A DNA stretch of 64,000 nucleotides from the human T2T-CHM13v2.0 reference genome, Homo sapiens. This document shows, piece by piece, positions 7,572 through 57,360 of this stretch. Numbering within the stretch: position 1 is the first letter of the stretch; each line of letters opens with the position of its first letter. Below the pieces are notes generated by a model. It was not told where the DNA came from. It ran no database searches and worked only from the letters and a program-made list of their open reading frames with translations. Made by a program: the position numbers and the translations under genes. The DNA is taken from the NCBI RefSeq assembly GCF_009914755.1, contig NC_060938.1, one strand, 5' to 3'.

Positions 7572-8387
7572 ACCCCCCCTTTCCCCTTCCCCCGCTTGTC
7601 TTCCCGACAGACAGTTTCACGGCAGAGCGTTTGGCTGGCGTGCTTAAACTCATTCTAAATAGAAATTTGGGACGTCAGCTTCTGGCCTCACGGACTCTGA
7701 GCCGAGGAGTCCCCTGGTCTGTCTATCACAGGACCGTACACGTAAGGAGGAGAAAAATCGTAACGTTCAAAGTCAGTCATTTTGTGATACAGAAATACAC
7801 GGATTCACCCAAAACACAGAAAGCAGTCTTTTAGAAATGGCCTTAGCCCTGGTGTCCGTGCCAGTGATTCTTTTCGGTTTGGACCTTGACTGAGAGGATT
7901 CCCAGTCGGTCTCTCGTCTCTGGACGGAAGTTCCAGATGATCCGATGGGTGGGGGACTTAGGCTGCGTCCCCCCAGGAGCCCTGGTCGATTAGTTGTGGG
8001 GATCGCCTTGGAGGGCGCGGTGACCCACTGTGCTGTGGGAGCCTCCATCCTTCCCCCCACCCCCTCCCCAGGGGATCCCAATTCATTCCGGGCTGACACG
8101 CTCACTGGCAGGCGTCGGGCATCACCTAGCGGTCACTGTTACTCTGAAAACGGAGGCCTCACAGAGGAAGGGAGCACCAGGCCGCCTGCGCACAGCCTGG
8201 GGCAACTGTGTCTTCTCCACCGCCCCCGCCCCCACCTCCAAGTTCCTCCCTCCCTTGTTGCCTAGGAAATCGCCACTTTGACGACCGGGTCTGATTGACC
8301 TTTGATCAGGCAAAAACGAACAAACAGATAAATAAATAAAATAACACAAAAGTAACTAACTAAATAAAATAAGTCAATACAACCCAT

Positions 8388-8520
8388 TACAATACAATAA
8401 GATACGATACGATAGGATGCGATAGGATACGATAGGATACAATACAATACGATACGATACAATACAATACAATACAATACAATACAATACAATACAATAC
8501 AATACAATACAATACAATAC
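8388..8520 (+). repeat. (AATAC/GATAC)n pentanucleotide microsatellite
   Basis: 12 perfect AATAC units at 8461-8520. Confidence 0.95.
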
Positions 8521-9353
<833 letters not shown>

Positions 9354-9624
9354 TTAACTTCATTTTATGTTATTATCATGATTGATGTTTCGAGACGGAG
9401 TCTCGGAGGCCCGCCCTCCCTGGTTGCCCAGACAACCCCGGGAGACAGACCCTGGCTGGGCCCGATTGTTCTTCTCCTTGGTCAGGGGTTTCCTTGTCTT
9501 TCTTCGTGTCTTTAACCCGCGTGGACTCTTCCGCTCGGGTTTGACAGATGGCAGCTCCACTTTAGGCCTTGTTGTTGTTGGGGACTTTCCTGATTCTCCC
9601 CAGATGTAGTGAAAGCAGGTAGAT

Positions 9625-9658
9625 TTGCCTTGCCTGGACTTGCCTGGCCTTGCCTTTT
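9625..9658 (+). promoter_or_regulatory. RGC p53 response element
   Basis: TTGCCTTGCCTGGACTTGCCTGGCCTTGCCTTTT, the classic ribosomal gene cluster p53 site; half-sites GGACTTGCCT and GGCCTTGCCT. Confidence 0.85.
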
Positions 9659-11091: not shown

Positions 11092-12164
11092 TGTTGACTC
11101 ATTTCGCTTTTTTATTTCTTTCGTTTCCACGCGTTTACTTATATGTATTAATGTAAACGTTTCTGTACGCTTATATGCAAACAACGACAACGTGTATCTC
11201 TGCATTGAATACTCTTGCGTATGGTAAATACGTATCGGTTGTATGGAAATAGACTTCTGTATGATAGATGTAGGTGTTTGTGTTATACAAATAAATACAC
11301 ATCGCTCTATAAAGAAGGGATCGTCGATAAAGACGTTTATTTTACGTATGAAAAGCGTCGTATTTATGTGTGTAAATGAACGAGCGTACGTAGTTATCTC
11401 TGTTTTCTTTCTTCCTCTCCTTCGTGTTTTTCTTCCTTCCTTTCTTCCTTTCTCTCCTTCTTTAGGTTTTTCTTCCTCTCTTCCTTTCCTTCTTTCTCTC
11501 TTTCTGTCCTTTTTTCCTTCGTGCTTTATTTCTCTTTCGTTCCCTGTGTTTCCTTCTTTTTTCTTTCCTCTCTGTTTCTTTTTCCCTTCTTTCCTTCGTT
11601 TCTTTCCTCATTCTTTCTCTCTTTTTCGTGTTTCTTTCCTTCCCGTCTGTCTTTTAAAAAATGGAGTGTTTCAGAAGTTTACTTTGTGTATCTACGTTTT
11701 CTAAATTGTCTCTCTTTTCTCCATTTTCTTCCTCCCTCCCTCCCTCCCTCCCTCCCTGCTCCCTTCCCTCCCTCCTTCCCTTTCGCCATCTGTCTCTTTT
11801 CCCCACTCCCCTCCCCCCGTCTGTCTCTGCGTGGATTCCGGAAGAGCCTACGCATTCTGCCTCTCCGTGTGTCTGCAGCGACCCGCGACCGAGTCCTTGT
11901 GTGTTCTTTCTCCCTCCCTCCCTCCCTCCCTCCCTCCCTCCCTGCTTCCGAGAGGCATCTCCAAACACCCACGCGCCGTGGGTTGTCTTCTGACTCTGTC
12001 GCGGTCGAGGCAGAGACGCGTTTTGGGCACCGTTTGTGTGGGGTTGGGGCAGAGGGGCTGCGTTTTCGGCCTCGGGAAGAGCTTCTCGACTCACGGTTTC
12101 GCTTTCGCGGTCCACGGGCCGCCCTGCCAGCCGGATCTGTCTCGCTGACGTCCGCGGCGGTTGT

Positions 12165-12400
12165 CGGGCTCCATCTGGCGGCCGCTTTGAGATCGTGCTC
12201 TCGGCTTCCGGAGCTGCGGTGGCAGCTGCCGAGGGAGGGGACCGTCCCCGCTGTGAGCTAGGCAGAGCTCCGGAAAGCCCGCGGTCGTCAGCCCGGCTGG
12301 CCCGGTGGCGCCAGAGCTGTGGCGCGTCGCTTGTGAGTCACAGCTCTGGCGTGCAGGTTTATGTGGGGGAGAGGCTGTCGCTGCGCTTCTGGGCCCGCGG
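12165..12400 (+). promoter_or_regulatory. CTCF site (12166-12186) and spacer-promoter region
   Basis: Reverse complement GCGGCCGCCAGATGGAGCCC fits the CTCF core; about -900 matches the known human rDNA CTCF/spacer-promoter boundary; exact spacer TSS cannot be read from sequence. Confidence 0.7.
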
Positions 12401-12914: not shown

Positions 12915-13088
12915 GGCGCTCCGTGTGTGGCTGCGATGGTGGCGTTTTTGGGGACAGGTGTCCGTGTCGCGCGTCGCCTGGGCCGGCGGCGTGGTCGGTG
13001 ACGCGACCTCCCGGCCCCGGGGGAGGTATATCTTTCGCTCCGAGTCGGCATTTTGGGCCGCCGGGTTATTGCTGACGCGCTGTCCTCT
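12915..13088 (+). promoter_or_regulatory. Pol I 47S promoter (UCE approx. -156..-107; core approx. -45..+18)
   Basis: GGAGGTATATCTTTCGCTCCGAGTCGGCATTTTGGGCCGCCGGGTTATT|GCTGAC matches the human core promoter. Confidence 0.93.
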
Positions 13089-37140: not shown

Positions 37141-37463
37141 AGACACCCCCGTGCCGGGTAGGGCCCTGCCCCTTCCACGAAAGTGAGAAGCGCGTGCTTC
37201 GGTGCTTAGAGAGGCCGAGAGGAATCTAGACAGGCGGGCCTTGCTGGGCTTCCCCACTCGGTGTATGATTTCGGGAGGTCGAGGCCGGGTCCCCGCTTGG
37301 ATGCGAGGGGCATTTTCAGACTTTTCTCTCGGTCACGTGTGGCGTCCGTACTTCTCCTATTTCCCCGATAAGCTCCTCGACTTCAACATAAACGGCGTCC
37401 TAAGGGTCGATTTAGTGTCATGCCTCTTTCACCGCCACCACCGAAGATGAAAGCAAAGATCGG

Positions 37464-41692: not shown

Positions 41693-41952
41693 TCAGACAC
41701 CCCCGTGCCGGGTAGGGCCCTGCCCCTTCCACGAGAGTGAGAAGCGCGTGCTTCGGTGCTTAGAGAGGCCGAGAGGAATCTAGACAGGCGGGCCTTGCTG
41801 GGCTTCCCCACTCGGTGTACGATTTCGGGAGGTCGAGGCCGGGTCCCCGCTTGGATGCGAGGGGCATTTTCAGACTTTTCTCTCGGTCACGTGTGGCGTC
41901 CGTACTTCTCCTATTTCCCCGATAAGCTCCTCGACTTCAACATAAACTGTTA

Positions 41953-42157
41953 AGGCCGGACGCAACACGGCGAAACCCCGTCTCTACTAAAAATACAAAG
42001 CTGAGTCGGGAGCGGTGGGGCAGGCCCCTGTAATGCCAGCTCCTCGGGAGGCTGAGGCGGGAGAATCGCTTGAACCAGGGAAGCGGAGGCTGCAGGGAGC
42101 CGAGATCGCGCCACTGCACTACGGCCCAGGCTGTAGAGTGAGTGAGACTCGGTCTCT
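41953..42157 (+). mobile_element. 5'-truncated Alu
   Basis: GGCGAAACCCCGTCTCTACTAAAAATACAAA...GAGACTCGGTCTC. Confidence 0.85.
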
Positions 42158-43352
42158 AAATAAATACGGAAATTAATTAATTCATTAATTCTTTTCCCTG
42201 CTGACGGACATTTGCAGGCAGGCATCGGTTGTCTTCGGGCATCACCTAGCGGCCACTGTTATTGAAAGTCGACGTGACACGGAGGGAGGTCTCGCCGACT
42301 TCACCGAGCCTGGGGCAACGGGTTTCTCTCTCTCCCTTCTGGAGGCCCCTCCCTCTCTCCCTCGTTGCCTAGGGAACCTCGCCTAGGGAACCTCCGCCCT
42401 GGCGGGGGCCCTATTGTTCTTTGATCGGCGCTTTACTTTTCTTTGTGTTTTGGCGCCTAGACTCTTCTACTTGGGCTTTGGGAAGGGTCAGTTTAATTTT
42501 CAAGTTGCCCCCCGGCTCCCCCCACTACCCACGTCCCTTCACCTTAATTTAGTGAGTCGGTTAGGTGGGTTTCCCCCAAACCGCCCCCCCCCCCCCCCCG
42601 CCTCCCAACACCCTGCTTGGAAACCTTCCAGAGCCACCCCGGTGTGCCTCCGTCTTCTCTCCCCTTCCCCCACCCCTTGCCGGCGATCTCATTCTTGCCA
42701 GGCTGACATTTGCATCGGTGGGCGTCAGGCCTCACTCGGGGGCCACCGTTTTTGAAGATGGGGGCGGCACGGTCCCACTTCCCCGGAGGCAGCTTGGGCC
42801 GATGGCATAGCCCCTTGACCCGCGTGGGCAAGCGGGCGGGTCTGCAGTTGTGAGGCTTTTCCCCCCGCTGCTTCCCGCCTCAGGCCTCCCTCCCTAGGAA
42901 AGCTTCACCCTGGCTGGGTCTCGGTCACCTTTTATCACGATGTTTTAGTTTCTCCGCCCTCCGGCCAGCAGAGTTTCACAATGCGAAGGGCGCCACGGCT
43001 CTAGTCTGGGCCTTCTCAGTACTTGCCCAAAATAGAAACGCTTTCTGAAAACTAATAACTTTGCTCACTTAAGATTTCCAGGGACGGCGCCTTGGCCCGT
43101 GTTTGTTGGCTTGTTTTGTTTCGTTCTGTTTTGTTTTGTTCGTGTTTTTCCTTTCTCGTATGTCTTTCTTTTCAGGTGAAGTAGAAATCCCCAGTTTTCA
43201 GGAAGACGTCTATTTTCCCCAAGACACGTTAGCTGCCGTTTTTTCCTGTTGTGAACTAGCGCTTTTGTGACTCTCTCAACGTGCAGTGAGAGCCGGTTGA
43301 TGTTTACTATCCTTCATCATGACATCTTATTTTCTAGAAATCCGTAGGCGAA

Positions 43353-51561: not shown

Positions 51562-52810
51562 TAGCCAGGATGGTCTCGATCTCCTGACCCCGTGATCCGT
51601 CCACCTCGGCCTCCCAAAGTGCTGGGATGACAGGCGTGAGCCACCGCCCCCGGCCTATTTATCTATTTATTAACTTTGAGTCCAGGTTATGAAACCAGTT
51701 AGTTTTTGTAATTTTTTTTTTTTTTTTTTTTTTTTTGAGACGAGGTTTCACCGTGTTGCCAAGGCTTGGACCGAGGGATCCACCGGCCCTCGGCCTCCCA
51801 AAAGTGCGGGGATGACAGGCGCGAGCCTACCGCGCCCGGACCCCCCCTTTCCCCTTCCCCCGCTTGTCTTCCCGACAGACAGTTTCACGGCAGAGCGTTT
51901 GGCTGGCGTGCTTAAACTCATTCTAAATAGAAATTTGGGACGTCAGCTTCTGGCCTCACGGACTCTGAGCCGAGGAGTCCCCTGGTCTGTCTATCACAGG
52001 ACCGTACACGTAAGGAGGAGAAAAATCGTAACGTTCAAAGTCAGTCATTTTGTGATACAGAAATACACGGATTCACCCAAAACACAGAAAGCAGTCTTTT
52101 AGAAATGGCCTTAGCCCTGGTGTCCGTGCCAGTGATTCTTTTCGGTTTGGACCTTGACTGAGAGGATTCCCAGTCGGTCTCTCGTCTCTGGACGGAAGTT
52201 CCAGATGATCCGATGGGTGGGGGACTTAGGCTGCGTCCCCCCAGGAGCCCTGGTCGATTAGTTGTGGGGATCGCCTTGGAGGGCGCGGTGACCCACTGTG
52301 CTGTGGGAGCCTCCATCCTTCCCCCCACCCCCTCCCCAGGGGATCCCAATTCATTCCGGGCTGACACGCTCACTGGCAGGCGTCGGGCATCACCTAGCGG
52401 TCACTGTTACTCTGAAAACGGAGGCCTCACAGAGGAAGGGAGCACCAGGCCGCCTGCGCACAGCCTGGGGCAACTGTGTCTTCTCCACCGCCCCCGCCCC
52501 CACCTCCAAGTTCCTCCCTCCCTTGTTGCCTAGGAAATCGCCACTTTGACGACCGGGTCTGATTGACCTTTGATCAGGCAAAAACGAACAAACAGATAAA
52601 TAAATAAAATAACACAAAAGTAACTAACTAAATAAAATAAGTCAATACAACCCATTACAATACAATAAGATACGATACGATAGGATGCGATAGGATACGA
52701 TAGGATACAATACAATACGATACGATACAATACAATACAATACAATACAATACAATACAATACAATACAATACAATACAATACGCCGGGCGCGGTGGCTC
52801 ATGCCTGTCA

Positions 52811-53616: not shown

Positions 53617-53887
53617 TTAACTTCATTTTATGTTATTATCATGATTGATGTTTCGAGACGGAGTCTCGGAGGCCCGCCCTCCCTGGTTGCCCAGACAACC
53701 CCGGGAGACAGACCCTGGCTGGGCCCGATTGTTCTTCTCCTTGGTCAGGGGTTTCCTTGTCTTTCTTCGTGTCTTTAACCCGCGTGGACTCTTCCGCTCG
53801 GGTTTGACAGATGGCAGCTCCACTTTAGGCCTTGTTGTTGTTGGGGACTTTCCTGATTCTCCCCAGATGTAGTGAAAGCAGGTAGAT

Positions 53888-53921
53888 TTGCCTTGCCTGG
53901 ACTTGCCTGGCCTTGCCTTTT
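53888..53921 (+). promoter_or_regulatory. RGC p53 response element (second unit)
   Basis: Same sequence as 9625-9658. Confidence 0.85.
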
Positions 53922-57186: not shown

Positions 57187-57360
57187 GGCGCTCCGTGTGT
57201 GGCTGCGATGGTGGCGTTTTTGGGGACAGGTGTCCGTGTCGCGCGTCGCCTGGGCCGGCGGCGTGGTCGGTGACGCGACCTCCCGGCCCCGGGGGAGGTA
57301 TATCTTTCGCTCCGAGTCGGCATTTTGGGCCGCCGGGTTATTGCTGACGCGCTGTCCTCT
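57187..57360 (+). promoter_or_regulatory. Pol I 47S promoter of second unit (TSS 57343; T0 at 57167-57177)
   Basis: Same sequence as 12915-13088. Confidence 0.93.

What the first reader, a model, noticed from the sequence alone, without database searches (positions are those of the whole stretch)
42195..42940. Hidden, dispersed ~300-bp regulatory module family (CTCF + RFX X-box + TCF/LEF) in four diverged copies per IGS
Seen: 42195-42500 and 8045-8310 (again at 52313-52578) share four colinear blocks with spacing conserved to within ~13 bp. These are TCGGGCATCACCTAGCGG[C/T]CACTGTTA (42235/8115), AGCCTGGGGCAAC (42307/8194), GTTGCCTAGG[G/A]AA (42364/8257) and CTTTGATC (42419/8300). The sequence between blocks has diverged. 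A third, more decayed copy follows in tandem at 42660-42940 (GGCGTCAGGCCTCACTCGGGGGCCACCGTT; CTCCCTCCCTAGGAAA; GGGTCTCGGTCACCTTTTATCA). A fourth, 3'-only copy lies at 9405-9555 (GGAGGCCC..CCCTGGTTGCCCAGACAAC..CCCTGGCTGGGCCCGATTGTTCT..GACTCTTC), ending ~70 bp before the RGC p53 site. Established: the reverse complement CAGTGGCCGCTAGGTGATGCCC fits the CTCF core, GTTGCCnnGGnAAC is an RFX X-box, and CTTTGATC is a TCF/LEF site. The two best copies lie about +29 kb and -5 kb from the TSS, roughly the IGS28 and IGS38 positions reported as Pol II/active-chromatin sites. Inference: these two IGS regulatory sites are ancient paralogues in which selection kept only the factor-binding motifs. I know of no annotation of this repeat family.
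Basis: partly seen in the sequence, partly recalled or inferred. Interest (0 to 1): 0.85.

Follow-up and report, generated by a model that had tools for sequence, protein, structure and literature searches.

The report
Duplicated promoter cassettes in rDNA spacer
The spacer between human ribosomal RNA genes holds four old, diverged copies of one DNA unit that likely works as a promoter for non-coding RNA, so two separately described regulatory sites turn out to be related.

Summary
The four copies are real: A 42187-42478, C 42659-42951, B 52171-52578 (=7903-8310), D 53668-53806 (=9405-9543); a profile finds no fifth. Old pericentromeric rDNA fossils show a unit of at least 450 bp that once had at least five copies. 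Every homologue I could see outside the arrays is an rDNA fossil, so a transposon is unlikely. Copy B's CTCF motif fits the published site H37.9 (ChIP, EMSA). Copies C and D have stem-cell CAGE peaks; B has none on the sense strand. 'Only motifs were kept' is partly wrong: similarity runs between blocks, only the CTCF block exceeds uniform decay, the whole core of A is constrained (4/152 vs 55/601 changes), B is not (14/171), and A's TCF word looks like a later gain. Best reading: a duplicated Pol II promoter cassette (CTCF, predicted RFX X-box, initiator), active at A and decaying elsewhere. RFX and TCF binding are untested. The sites are known; their kinship was not found in ten searches.

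The parts
42187..42478 (+). Copy A, best-kept copy (its upstream ~700 bp survives only in old fossils)
   Evidence: overlaps primate-conserved region c31 = 42268-42411
42237..42255 (-). CTCF-type motif of copy A; 14-bp core identical to that of copy B
   Evidence: 12/14 to a recalled consensus; published CTCF chromatin states overlap or flank it in HUVEC, A549, K562
42307..42319 (+). Block 2, half X-box only
   Evidence: not a hit at 2 mismatches to a recalled 14-bp X-box
42364..42377 (+). Predicted RFX X-box, about 50 bp upstream of the start site
   Evidence: 13/14; one of the two best matches in the spacer
42378..42391 (+). Recent 14-bp tandem duplication of part of the X-box block
   Evidence: absent from 20 of 20 fossils aligned
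42411..42426 (+).
   Evidence: 16 of 16 CAGE peaks intersect at 42420-42423, or 42423-42426 with the other anchor
42659..42951 (+). Copy C, in tandem with A; decayed CTCF-like motif near 42727-42745; possibly a fusion of two copies
   Evidence: overlaps c32; H9 and K562 sense CAGE at 42945-43020, H9 antisense CAGE at 42852-42954
52171..52578 (+). Copy B with its upstream block (same as 7903-8310)
   Evidence: c43 = 52218-52310 and c44 = 52378-52474, which runs from the CTCF block to the end of block 2
8117..8135 (-). CTCF motif of copy B (also 52385-52403), matching published site H37.9
   Evidence: -4.96 kb here vs -5.1 kb in print; three CpGs at 8113, 8116, 8130 as described; primers not seen
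7903..8310 (+). Copy B in the first rDNA unit of the window
53668..53806 (+). Copy D, 3' half only today (same as 9405-9543); X-box 53686-53699
   Evidence: longer form with the CTCF-like half in chr8, chrY and chr21 fossils; overlaps c48; H9 sense CAGE at 53652-53855
9405..9543 (+). Copy D in the first rDNA unit
12134..12206 (+). Spacer-promoter CTCF site H42.1 with flanks (motif 12166-12184): possible distant relative of the unit's 5' end, not established
   Evidence: flank score with the motif masked reached by 2/6000 and 1/6000 random anchors; no profile hit; pairwise z at most 1.8

Best explanation
The four stretches are diverged copies of one rDNA-spacer unit of at least 450 bp, and the unit likely works as an RNA polymerase II promoter cassette, with a CTCF site about 175 bp upstream of the start as a likely boundary, a predicted RFX X-box about 50 bp upstream, and a pyrimidine-rich start site. 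Shown: homology of the copies; a capped sense start inside block 4 of copy A in six cell lines (published CAGE placed on the window by E-box anchors); slowed change over the whole core of A. Taken from print by positional match: CTCF binding at copy B. Inferred: tandem and then longer-range duplication inside the spacer early in primate history or before; RFX opening the promoter; CTCF shielding it from the methylated spacer. The copies then parted: A stayed the main promoter, C and D kept stem-cell activity after losing a good CTCF site, and B kept CTCF binding but shows no sense start at block 4.
For: Homology. Start site: 16 of 16 replicate CAGE peaks from six lines intersect in 4 bp inside block 4. 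H9 has sense peaks over D and 16-80 bp past C's block-4 equivalent, and antisense peaks in A, in C and upstream of B. Active states at A in H1, A549, HeLa and HUVEC; active-mark peak at 28-29 kb; DNase peak at 29 kb; Pol II peaks at 28-30 and 38 kb, cited second-hand. Constraint since old fossils split off: A core 4/152 non-CpG changes vs 55/601 in control spacer, P 0.003; C 15/255 vs 44/367, P 0.007. CTCF block 26/27 identical today (34/1500 simulations) and 27/27 in the older state (1/800). 4 of 4 copies overlap primate-conserved regions (each has a 32-45% chance); c31, c32, c43, c44 are 56-74% identical in marmoset. The two best X-boxes of the spacer lie in A and D. One fossil family keeps exactly 42237-42426 with unalignable flanks (one event).
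Against: No RFX or TCF occupancy data were seen; RFX is absent from the main text of the 249-factor human atlas (its peak table not visible). ChIP-seq shows the main CTCF peak only at the spacer promoter, H37.9 binding is weaker, and no CTCF state is listed near B. B (14/171, P 0.41) and D (19/130) are not constrained in my fossil test, and c48 is only 28% identical in marmoset. CAGE at C and D comes from H9 (plus one K562 replicate), is broad or displaced, and site-level enrichment is marginal (P 0.048). Fossils share ancestry, so changes are not fully polarised, and several regions were tested. Reads from fossil copies could add to the signal. No function of the transcript from A is shown.
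Confidence: 0.62

Rival explanations
1. The copies are leftovers of old duplications decaying almost neutrally; copy A is a promoter for local reasons and only the CTCF word is kept in more than one copy.
For: Longest run and bases in runs of 8 or more are within uniform decay (140/1500 and 218/1500). B and D change at spacer rate. The paralog tree is close to a star.
Against: CAGE also at D and C; C is constrained; 4 of 4 copies overlap conserved regions, and c44 spans exactly CTCF to block 2.
Confidence: 0.18
2. One reading: an enhancer-like cluster in which CTCF, RFX and TCF/LEF sites alone were kept by selection in both main copies.
For: The only two CTTTGAT words of the spacer are in A and B. 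In the older state the CTCF block and block 3 are identical between A and B. TCF7L2 signal is reported in the spacer, coordinates not seen.
Against: A's TCF word is absent in 6 of 6 old fossils; B's blocks took 4 changes in 57 sites; A's inter-block bases are as conserved as its blocks. Block 4 is the start site.
Confidence: 0.1
3. Short gene-conversion tracts between A and B, not selection, keep the blocks alike.
For: Since the old fossils, one change made A like B (42423) and two made B like A (52466-52467).
Against: Other changes moved B away from A inside or next to blocks (52401, 52535, 52566-52567). The block-2 change can be CpG decay. Conversion does not explain constraint across A's core or the CAGE match.
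Confidence: 0.06
4. The unit is a remnant of a dispersed transposon or LTR that brought its own promoter.
For: RepeatMasker LTR labels (MER39B, PABL_A and others) exist in primate spacers and I could not read their positions. Genome searches list only the first 100 rows and miss very diverged families.
Against: Hits on chr1-12: 3 of 3 and 5 of 10 are rDNA fossils; the other 5 fail the profile (best E 0.017). First-look candidates are 251 for A and 242 for B against about 220 array units plus fossils. The profile hits no Alu.
Confidence: 0.04

Closest known systems
H37.9 CTCF site of human rDNA (van de Nobelen 2010, PMC2993708)
   Same: Position (-5 kb), three CpGs and motif fit copy B; binding shown there by ChIP and EMSA, methylation-sensitive.
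   Different: [quoted passage not shown]
28-29 kb active-chromatin site / zone-2, c31-c32 (Zentner 2011, PMC3130253; Agrawal and Ganley 2018, PMC6281188)
   Same: Same place as copies A and C; CAGE peak, possible bidirectional promoter, CTCF states, primate conservation.
   Different: Sequence called 'unremarkable'; in the parts read no motif anatomy, no base-level start site and no kinship with c43/c44/c48.
IGS28RNA, IGS38 lncRNA and IGS Pol II / TBPL1-TCT sites (bioRxiv 2026.05.02.722362; PMC11541992)
   Same: Pol II activity at about 28-30 and 38 kb; pyrimidine-rich initiators proposed for spacer transcription.
   Different: IGS28RNA lies just upstream of A and IGS38 RNA between B and D; the listed TCT sites were not seen, and block 4 is only a partial match to the printed TCT word.
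rDNA spacer sub-repeats and duplicated spacer promoters (Macdonald 2024, PMC11373518; Xenopus and Drosophila promoter-derived repeats recalled)
   Same: Repeated unit confined to the spacer, partly tandem, degenerate, carrying promoter-like anatomy.
   Different: Dispersed over two sites about 10 kb apart, only 55-73% alike, capped (Pol II-type) start, no profile match to the Pol I promoters.
Degraded pericentromeric rDNA units (Robicheau 2017, PMC5381670)
   Same: The fossils used here are of this kind.
   Different: Used here to date and polarise changes, which the passages read do not do.

Membership tests
Dispersed transposon / LTR family | Many genomic copies with unrelated flanks | tested here: not met
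   limited to the listed rows and to moderately diverged copies
Dispersed transposon / LTR family | Match to a Dfam or RepBase consensus | not testable with these tools
   no library held; S2 Fig labels lack positions
Dispersed transposon / LTR family | Defined termini and target-site duplications | not tested
   ends are eroded by Alu insertions and deletions
Alu / 7SL derivative | Colinear similarity to Alu | tested here: not met
   no Alu hit for the unit, although block 2 resembles an Alu word
CTCF site | Core motif | tested here: met
   A and B 12/14 to a recalled consensus; C's homologous motif is not a hit; 19 hits at 2 mismatches or fewer in the scanned spacer, so the match alone is weak
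CTCF site | Occupancy | not testable with these tools
   print only: ChIP and EMSA for H37.9; CTCF states at A; ChIP-seq peak mainly at H42.1
RFX X-box | 14-bp palindromic motif | tested here: met
   A and D 13/14, B 12/14; not met for block 2 or copy C (consensus recalled)
RFX X-box | RFX occupancy | not testable with these tools
   searches and the atlas text gave nothing on RFX
TCF/LEF site kept from the ancestor | Word present in older states of both copies | tested here: not met
   absent in 6 of 6 old A fossils, present in 5 of 7 old B fossils
Pol II promoter | Capped 5' ends at a fixed site | tested here: met
   published CAGE mapped to block 4 of A, 16 of 16 peaks; H9 (plus one K562 replicate for C) at C and D; none at B's block 4
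Pol II promoter | Autonomous activity that needs the motifs | not testable with these tools
   needs reporter or CRISPRi work
Duplicated Pol I spacer promoter | Homology to the spacer or 47S promoter | tested here: inconclusive
   no profile hit at E 5 or better, pairwise z at most 1.8; flanks of H42.1 score in the top 0.03% with the motif masked
IGS sub-repeat | Repeated unit confined to the spacer, tandem at least in part | tested here: met
   A-C tandem today; D followed by a fifth partial copy in the chr8 fossil

The most novel reading that the evidence does not exclude
The unit descends from the CTCF boundary cassette of the Pol I spacer promoter (H42.1). It was amplified at least five times inside the primate spacer, and the part downstream of CTCF turned into Pol II promoters. 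This would explain why human rDNA has extra CTCF sites that mouse lacks, and would give the Pol II sites at about 28-30 and 38-40 kb one origin and one grammar. Basis: same motif orientation, a similar CTCF-to-start distance (about 185-205 bp), and flank similarity with the motif masked (2/6000 and 1/6000 random anchors; rank 29 of 88,470). Against: noticed after the fact, no profile hit, no similarity further downstream, no control set of genomic CTCF sites.
Probability: 0.25. Interest if true: 0.78.

Novelty: new variant of a known kind. Interest (0 to 1): 0.58.

Why it matters
What drives Pol II transcription and open chromatin in the rDNA spacer is an open question; the 28-29 kb peak was called unexplained and the second CTCF site unclear. 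Kinship among these sites gives a base-level anatomy (CTCF, X-box, start site) and a natural series: one constrained active copy, two stem-cell-active damaged copies, one CTCF-bound copy without a sense start. That makes motif tests and factor-depletion tests direct, names RFX as a candidate regulator of spacer RNA, and shows that pericentromeric fossils can date spacer elements from one genome.

Tried and rejected
The whole genome could not be held as a file, so a genome-wide profile search remains open. DNA searches were filled by array copies; degenerate patterns were used instead. The 701-bp comparison query gave 654 candidates but is partly duplicated and of unknown repeat content, so it is a weak control. 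The S5 Appendix alignment was cut before the spacer and S7 gave no coordinates; E-box coordinates served as anchors. H37.9 primers were not found. An 11-bp match of copy B to the 47S start region was dropped: the deciding base differs in 7 of 7 old B fossils. A three-copy cassette duplicated to both sites was considered: C's 3' part groups with the lost fifth copy (support 95) and C shares a 13-mer with D's tail, but the 5' tree does not pair C with D; left open. Alu origin of block 2 rejected. Five single genomic pattern hits rejected. A transcript-table search reached only part of the supplements. Earlier scan findings were not available.

Full report
Setting. The window is a human rDNA array; 47S starts lie at 13071 and 57343. 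I call the copies A (42187-42478), C (42659-42951), B (52171-52578 = 7903-8310) and D (53668-53806 = 9405-9543).

1. Observation. Every quoted word is present with spacings 72/57/55 and 79/63/43. blastn gives E 1.6e-13 for A-B, 3e-9 for C-B, 1.6e-7 for A-D and 1.7e-4 for A-C. None of 300 shuffles reaches these four pairs; B-D (6/300) and C-D (152/300) are weak alone. A profile built from 18 copies finds these four by construction; the next hit has E 0.79 and the reversed control E 2.3. So there are four copies per unit and no detectable fifth. Similarity is not confined to blocks: 3 of 4 other segments beat shuffles.

2. Not a visible transposon. A two-block pattern gave 455 hits (control 2); the 3 on chr1-12 are rDNA fossils. 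A 3' pattern gave 476 hits; of 10 on chr1-12, 5 are fossils and 5 fail the profile. Patterns set to older states listed 20 A-type and 8 B-type places outside the arrays, all near centromeres or on acrocentric arms or chrY; 12 other one-mismatch hits on chr1-12 were not followed, against 16 control hits genome-wide. Only the first 100 rows of each search are shown, and no repeat library was available, so a very old low-copy element is not excluded. Degraded pericentromeric rDNA units are known (PMC5381670, passages).

3. What the fossils show. I aligned all 20 A-type places and 7 of the 8 B-type places (one arm of a chrY pair left out). The chr8 and chr12 fossils are about 73-83% identical to present spacer and carry both A and B; the chr12 one lacks the CDC27 pseudogene, which is in apes but not monkeys (PMC6281188 section text). 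They keep about 700 bp upstream of A that matches B's upstream block, so the unit was at least 450 bp. Three fossils hold D with its CTCF-like half, and chr8 has a fifth, 3'-only copy that groups with C's 3' part. Paralogs are 59-67% alike in the 5' part against 82-88% within each copy's group, about three times the distance. The duplications are therefore much older than the apes, likely early primate or before; this is a rough inference. Regions c31, c32, c43 and c44 are 56-74% identical in marmoset and 23-36% in mouse (S9).

4. Selection. Against simulated uniform decay only the CTCF block stands out: best 27-column window 34/1500 and 20/800 today, 1/800 in the older state; longest run (140/1500) and bases in long runs (218/1500; 117/800 in the older state) do not. 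Counting non-CpG sites where old fossils agree and present rDNA differs: A blocks 1/45 (45 of 61 sites callable), A between blocks 3/107, B blocks 4/57, B between 10/114, C 15/255, D 19/130, upstream block 4/103. Against controls with both fossil families (55/601), A's core has P 0.003, B's 0.41, the upstream block 0.048; C against its own flanks (44/367) 0.007. CpG sites, ambiguous and gapped columns were left out. Fossils share stems and several regions were tested. A's TCF word depends on a G at 42423 that 6 of 6 old fossils lack; B has changed inside its CTCF motif (52401), block 2 and block 3. So the whole core of A is constrained, B has relaxed, and 'only motifs' holds at most for the CTCF block in the deeper past.

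5. Published data placed on the window. E-box coordinates in S4 Fig of PMC6281188 give offsets 13362 and 13365 around A and C, 13383 before B, 13345 at D. Conserved regions then fall on all four copies: c31 in A, c32 in C, c44 from B's CTCF block to the end of block 2, c48 in D; each overlap has a 32-45% chance. S22 lists a sense CAGE peak in all six cell lines; the 16 replicate peaks intersect at 42420-42423 (42423-42426 with the other anchor), inside block 4. H9 cells add sense peaks at 53652-53855 (D) and 42945-43011 (just past C; one K562 replicate too) and antisense peaks in A, in C and upstream of B; none lies at B's block 4. S23 lists promoter, TSS or CTCF states at A in H1, A549, HeLa, HUVEC and K562, and no CTCF state near B. 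PMC2993708 (abstract, passages, supplement labels; primers not seen) describes H37.9, 5.1 kb upstream with three CpGs, bound by CTCF in ChIP and EMSA, methylation-sensitive and weaker than H42.1; copy B is at -4.96 kb with CpGs at 8113, 8116 and 8130. PMC3130253 (passages) finds the 28-29 kb active peak, calls its sequence unremarkable, and sees CTCF mainly at the spacer promoter. The IGS38 preprint (abstract, section 21, passages) places that RNA at 38.5-39.5 kb and cites Pol II peaks at 28-30 and 38 kb; the primary paper was not read. PMC11541992 (passages) proposes TCT initiators in the spacer.

6. Mechanism. In A the order is CTCF motif (42237-42255, minus strand like H42.1), half X-box, X-box (42364-42377, 13/14 to a recalled consensus, matched in the spacer only by D), a recent 14-bp duplication, then the start. 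Capped ends imply Pol II (established knowledge). I infer a promoter cassette in which RFX opens chromatin and CTCF bounds it upstream; both roles are untested. The copies form a decay series: A active everywhere and constrained; C and D active in stem cells without a good CTCF motif; B CTCF-bound but with no sense start and no constraint. Confidence 0.62 overall; homology is near certain, A as promoter about 0.85, RFX about 0.35.

7. A bolder lead. A matrix from the copies ranks the spacer-promoter CTCF site 4th of 88,470 windows. With the 19-bp motif masked, its flanks are matched by 2/6000 and 1/6000 random anchors and rank 29th ungapped. Pairwise and profile tests are negative, the likeness was noticed after the fact, and no genomic CTCF control set was available. 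Probability 0.25.

8. Novelty. The sites are known; their kinship, the base-level start and the copy history were not found in ten library searches or in a word search of PMC6281188 (paralog 0, RFX 0). Also read as passages only: bioRxiv 2022.01.21.476118 (plus section 6), 2026.07.18.739380 (51), 2020.02.21.958280 (53), PMC5006368, PMC11373518, PMC4861929, PMC4524424, PMC12579671. Not seen and possibly relevant: Gonzalez and Sylvester 1995, bioRxiv supplements (atlas peak table, IGS38 primers), the primate FASTA and alignment files of PMC6281188, and its transcript tables. Motif labels (CTCF, X-box, SOX, p53 RGC) and the Xenopus and Drosophila comparison are recalled.

Verdict: real feature, interpretation partly supported, new variant of a known kind (degenerate promoter-bearing spacer repeat), interest 0.58.

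Noticed in passing
window 13071-13080 and 57343-57352: The 47S start reads GCTGACGCG in both units here; the usual sequence (recalled) has A at +7.
   Followed up: no
window 8387-8851, minus strand: ORF with IVLYC repeats (154 aa from ATG here) between copies B and D, matching the description of ORF3 (190 aa in PMC12579671). Copy D lies about 550 bp upstream on that strand and could drive it.
   Followed up: partly
L035 (chr8 46.41 Mb), L041, L042: A fossil family with a compact spacer (about 11 kb from 28S end to promoter in chr8) that keeps only the core 42237-42426 of copy A between unalignable flanks.
   Followed up: partly
L038 7573-8250, L040, L055, L056: About 700 bp upstream of copy A, lost from present rDNA next to an Alu, survives in old fossils and holds the block homologous to 52171-52300.
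   Followed up: yes
window 7983-7993 and 52251-52261: A word 8/11 like the printed terminator (Sal box) consensus sits in the upstream block shared by A, B and D fossils; 9/11 in the chr12 fossil of A.
   Followed up: partly
window 42815-42827 and 9512-9524: A 13-mer containing a non-canonical E-box is shared only by the middle of C and the tail of D; both E-boxes are largely kept in primates.
   Followed up: partly
window 9628-9655 (53891-53918): The repeated word taken as the p53 RGC site (label recalled) begins where homology with the chr8 fossil ends; the fifth copy lay beyond this point.
   Followed up: partly
window 42413-42420 and 53728-53735: ATTGTTCT, a SOX-type word (label recalled), occurs only in A and D; old B fossils mostly have it and present B has lost it.
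   Followed up: partly
window 42733-42741: Old fossils of C carry a CCAAT-like word on the minus strand where present C has a G run.
   Followed up: no
window 37145-37393 and 41699-41953: These two stretches are duplicates of each other, part of the long-repeat region.
   Followed up: no
L035, spacer-promoter region: The chr8 fossil has a 10-bp insertion at the edge of the H42.1 CTCF motif.
   Followed up: no
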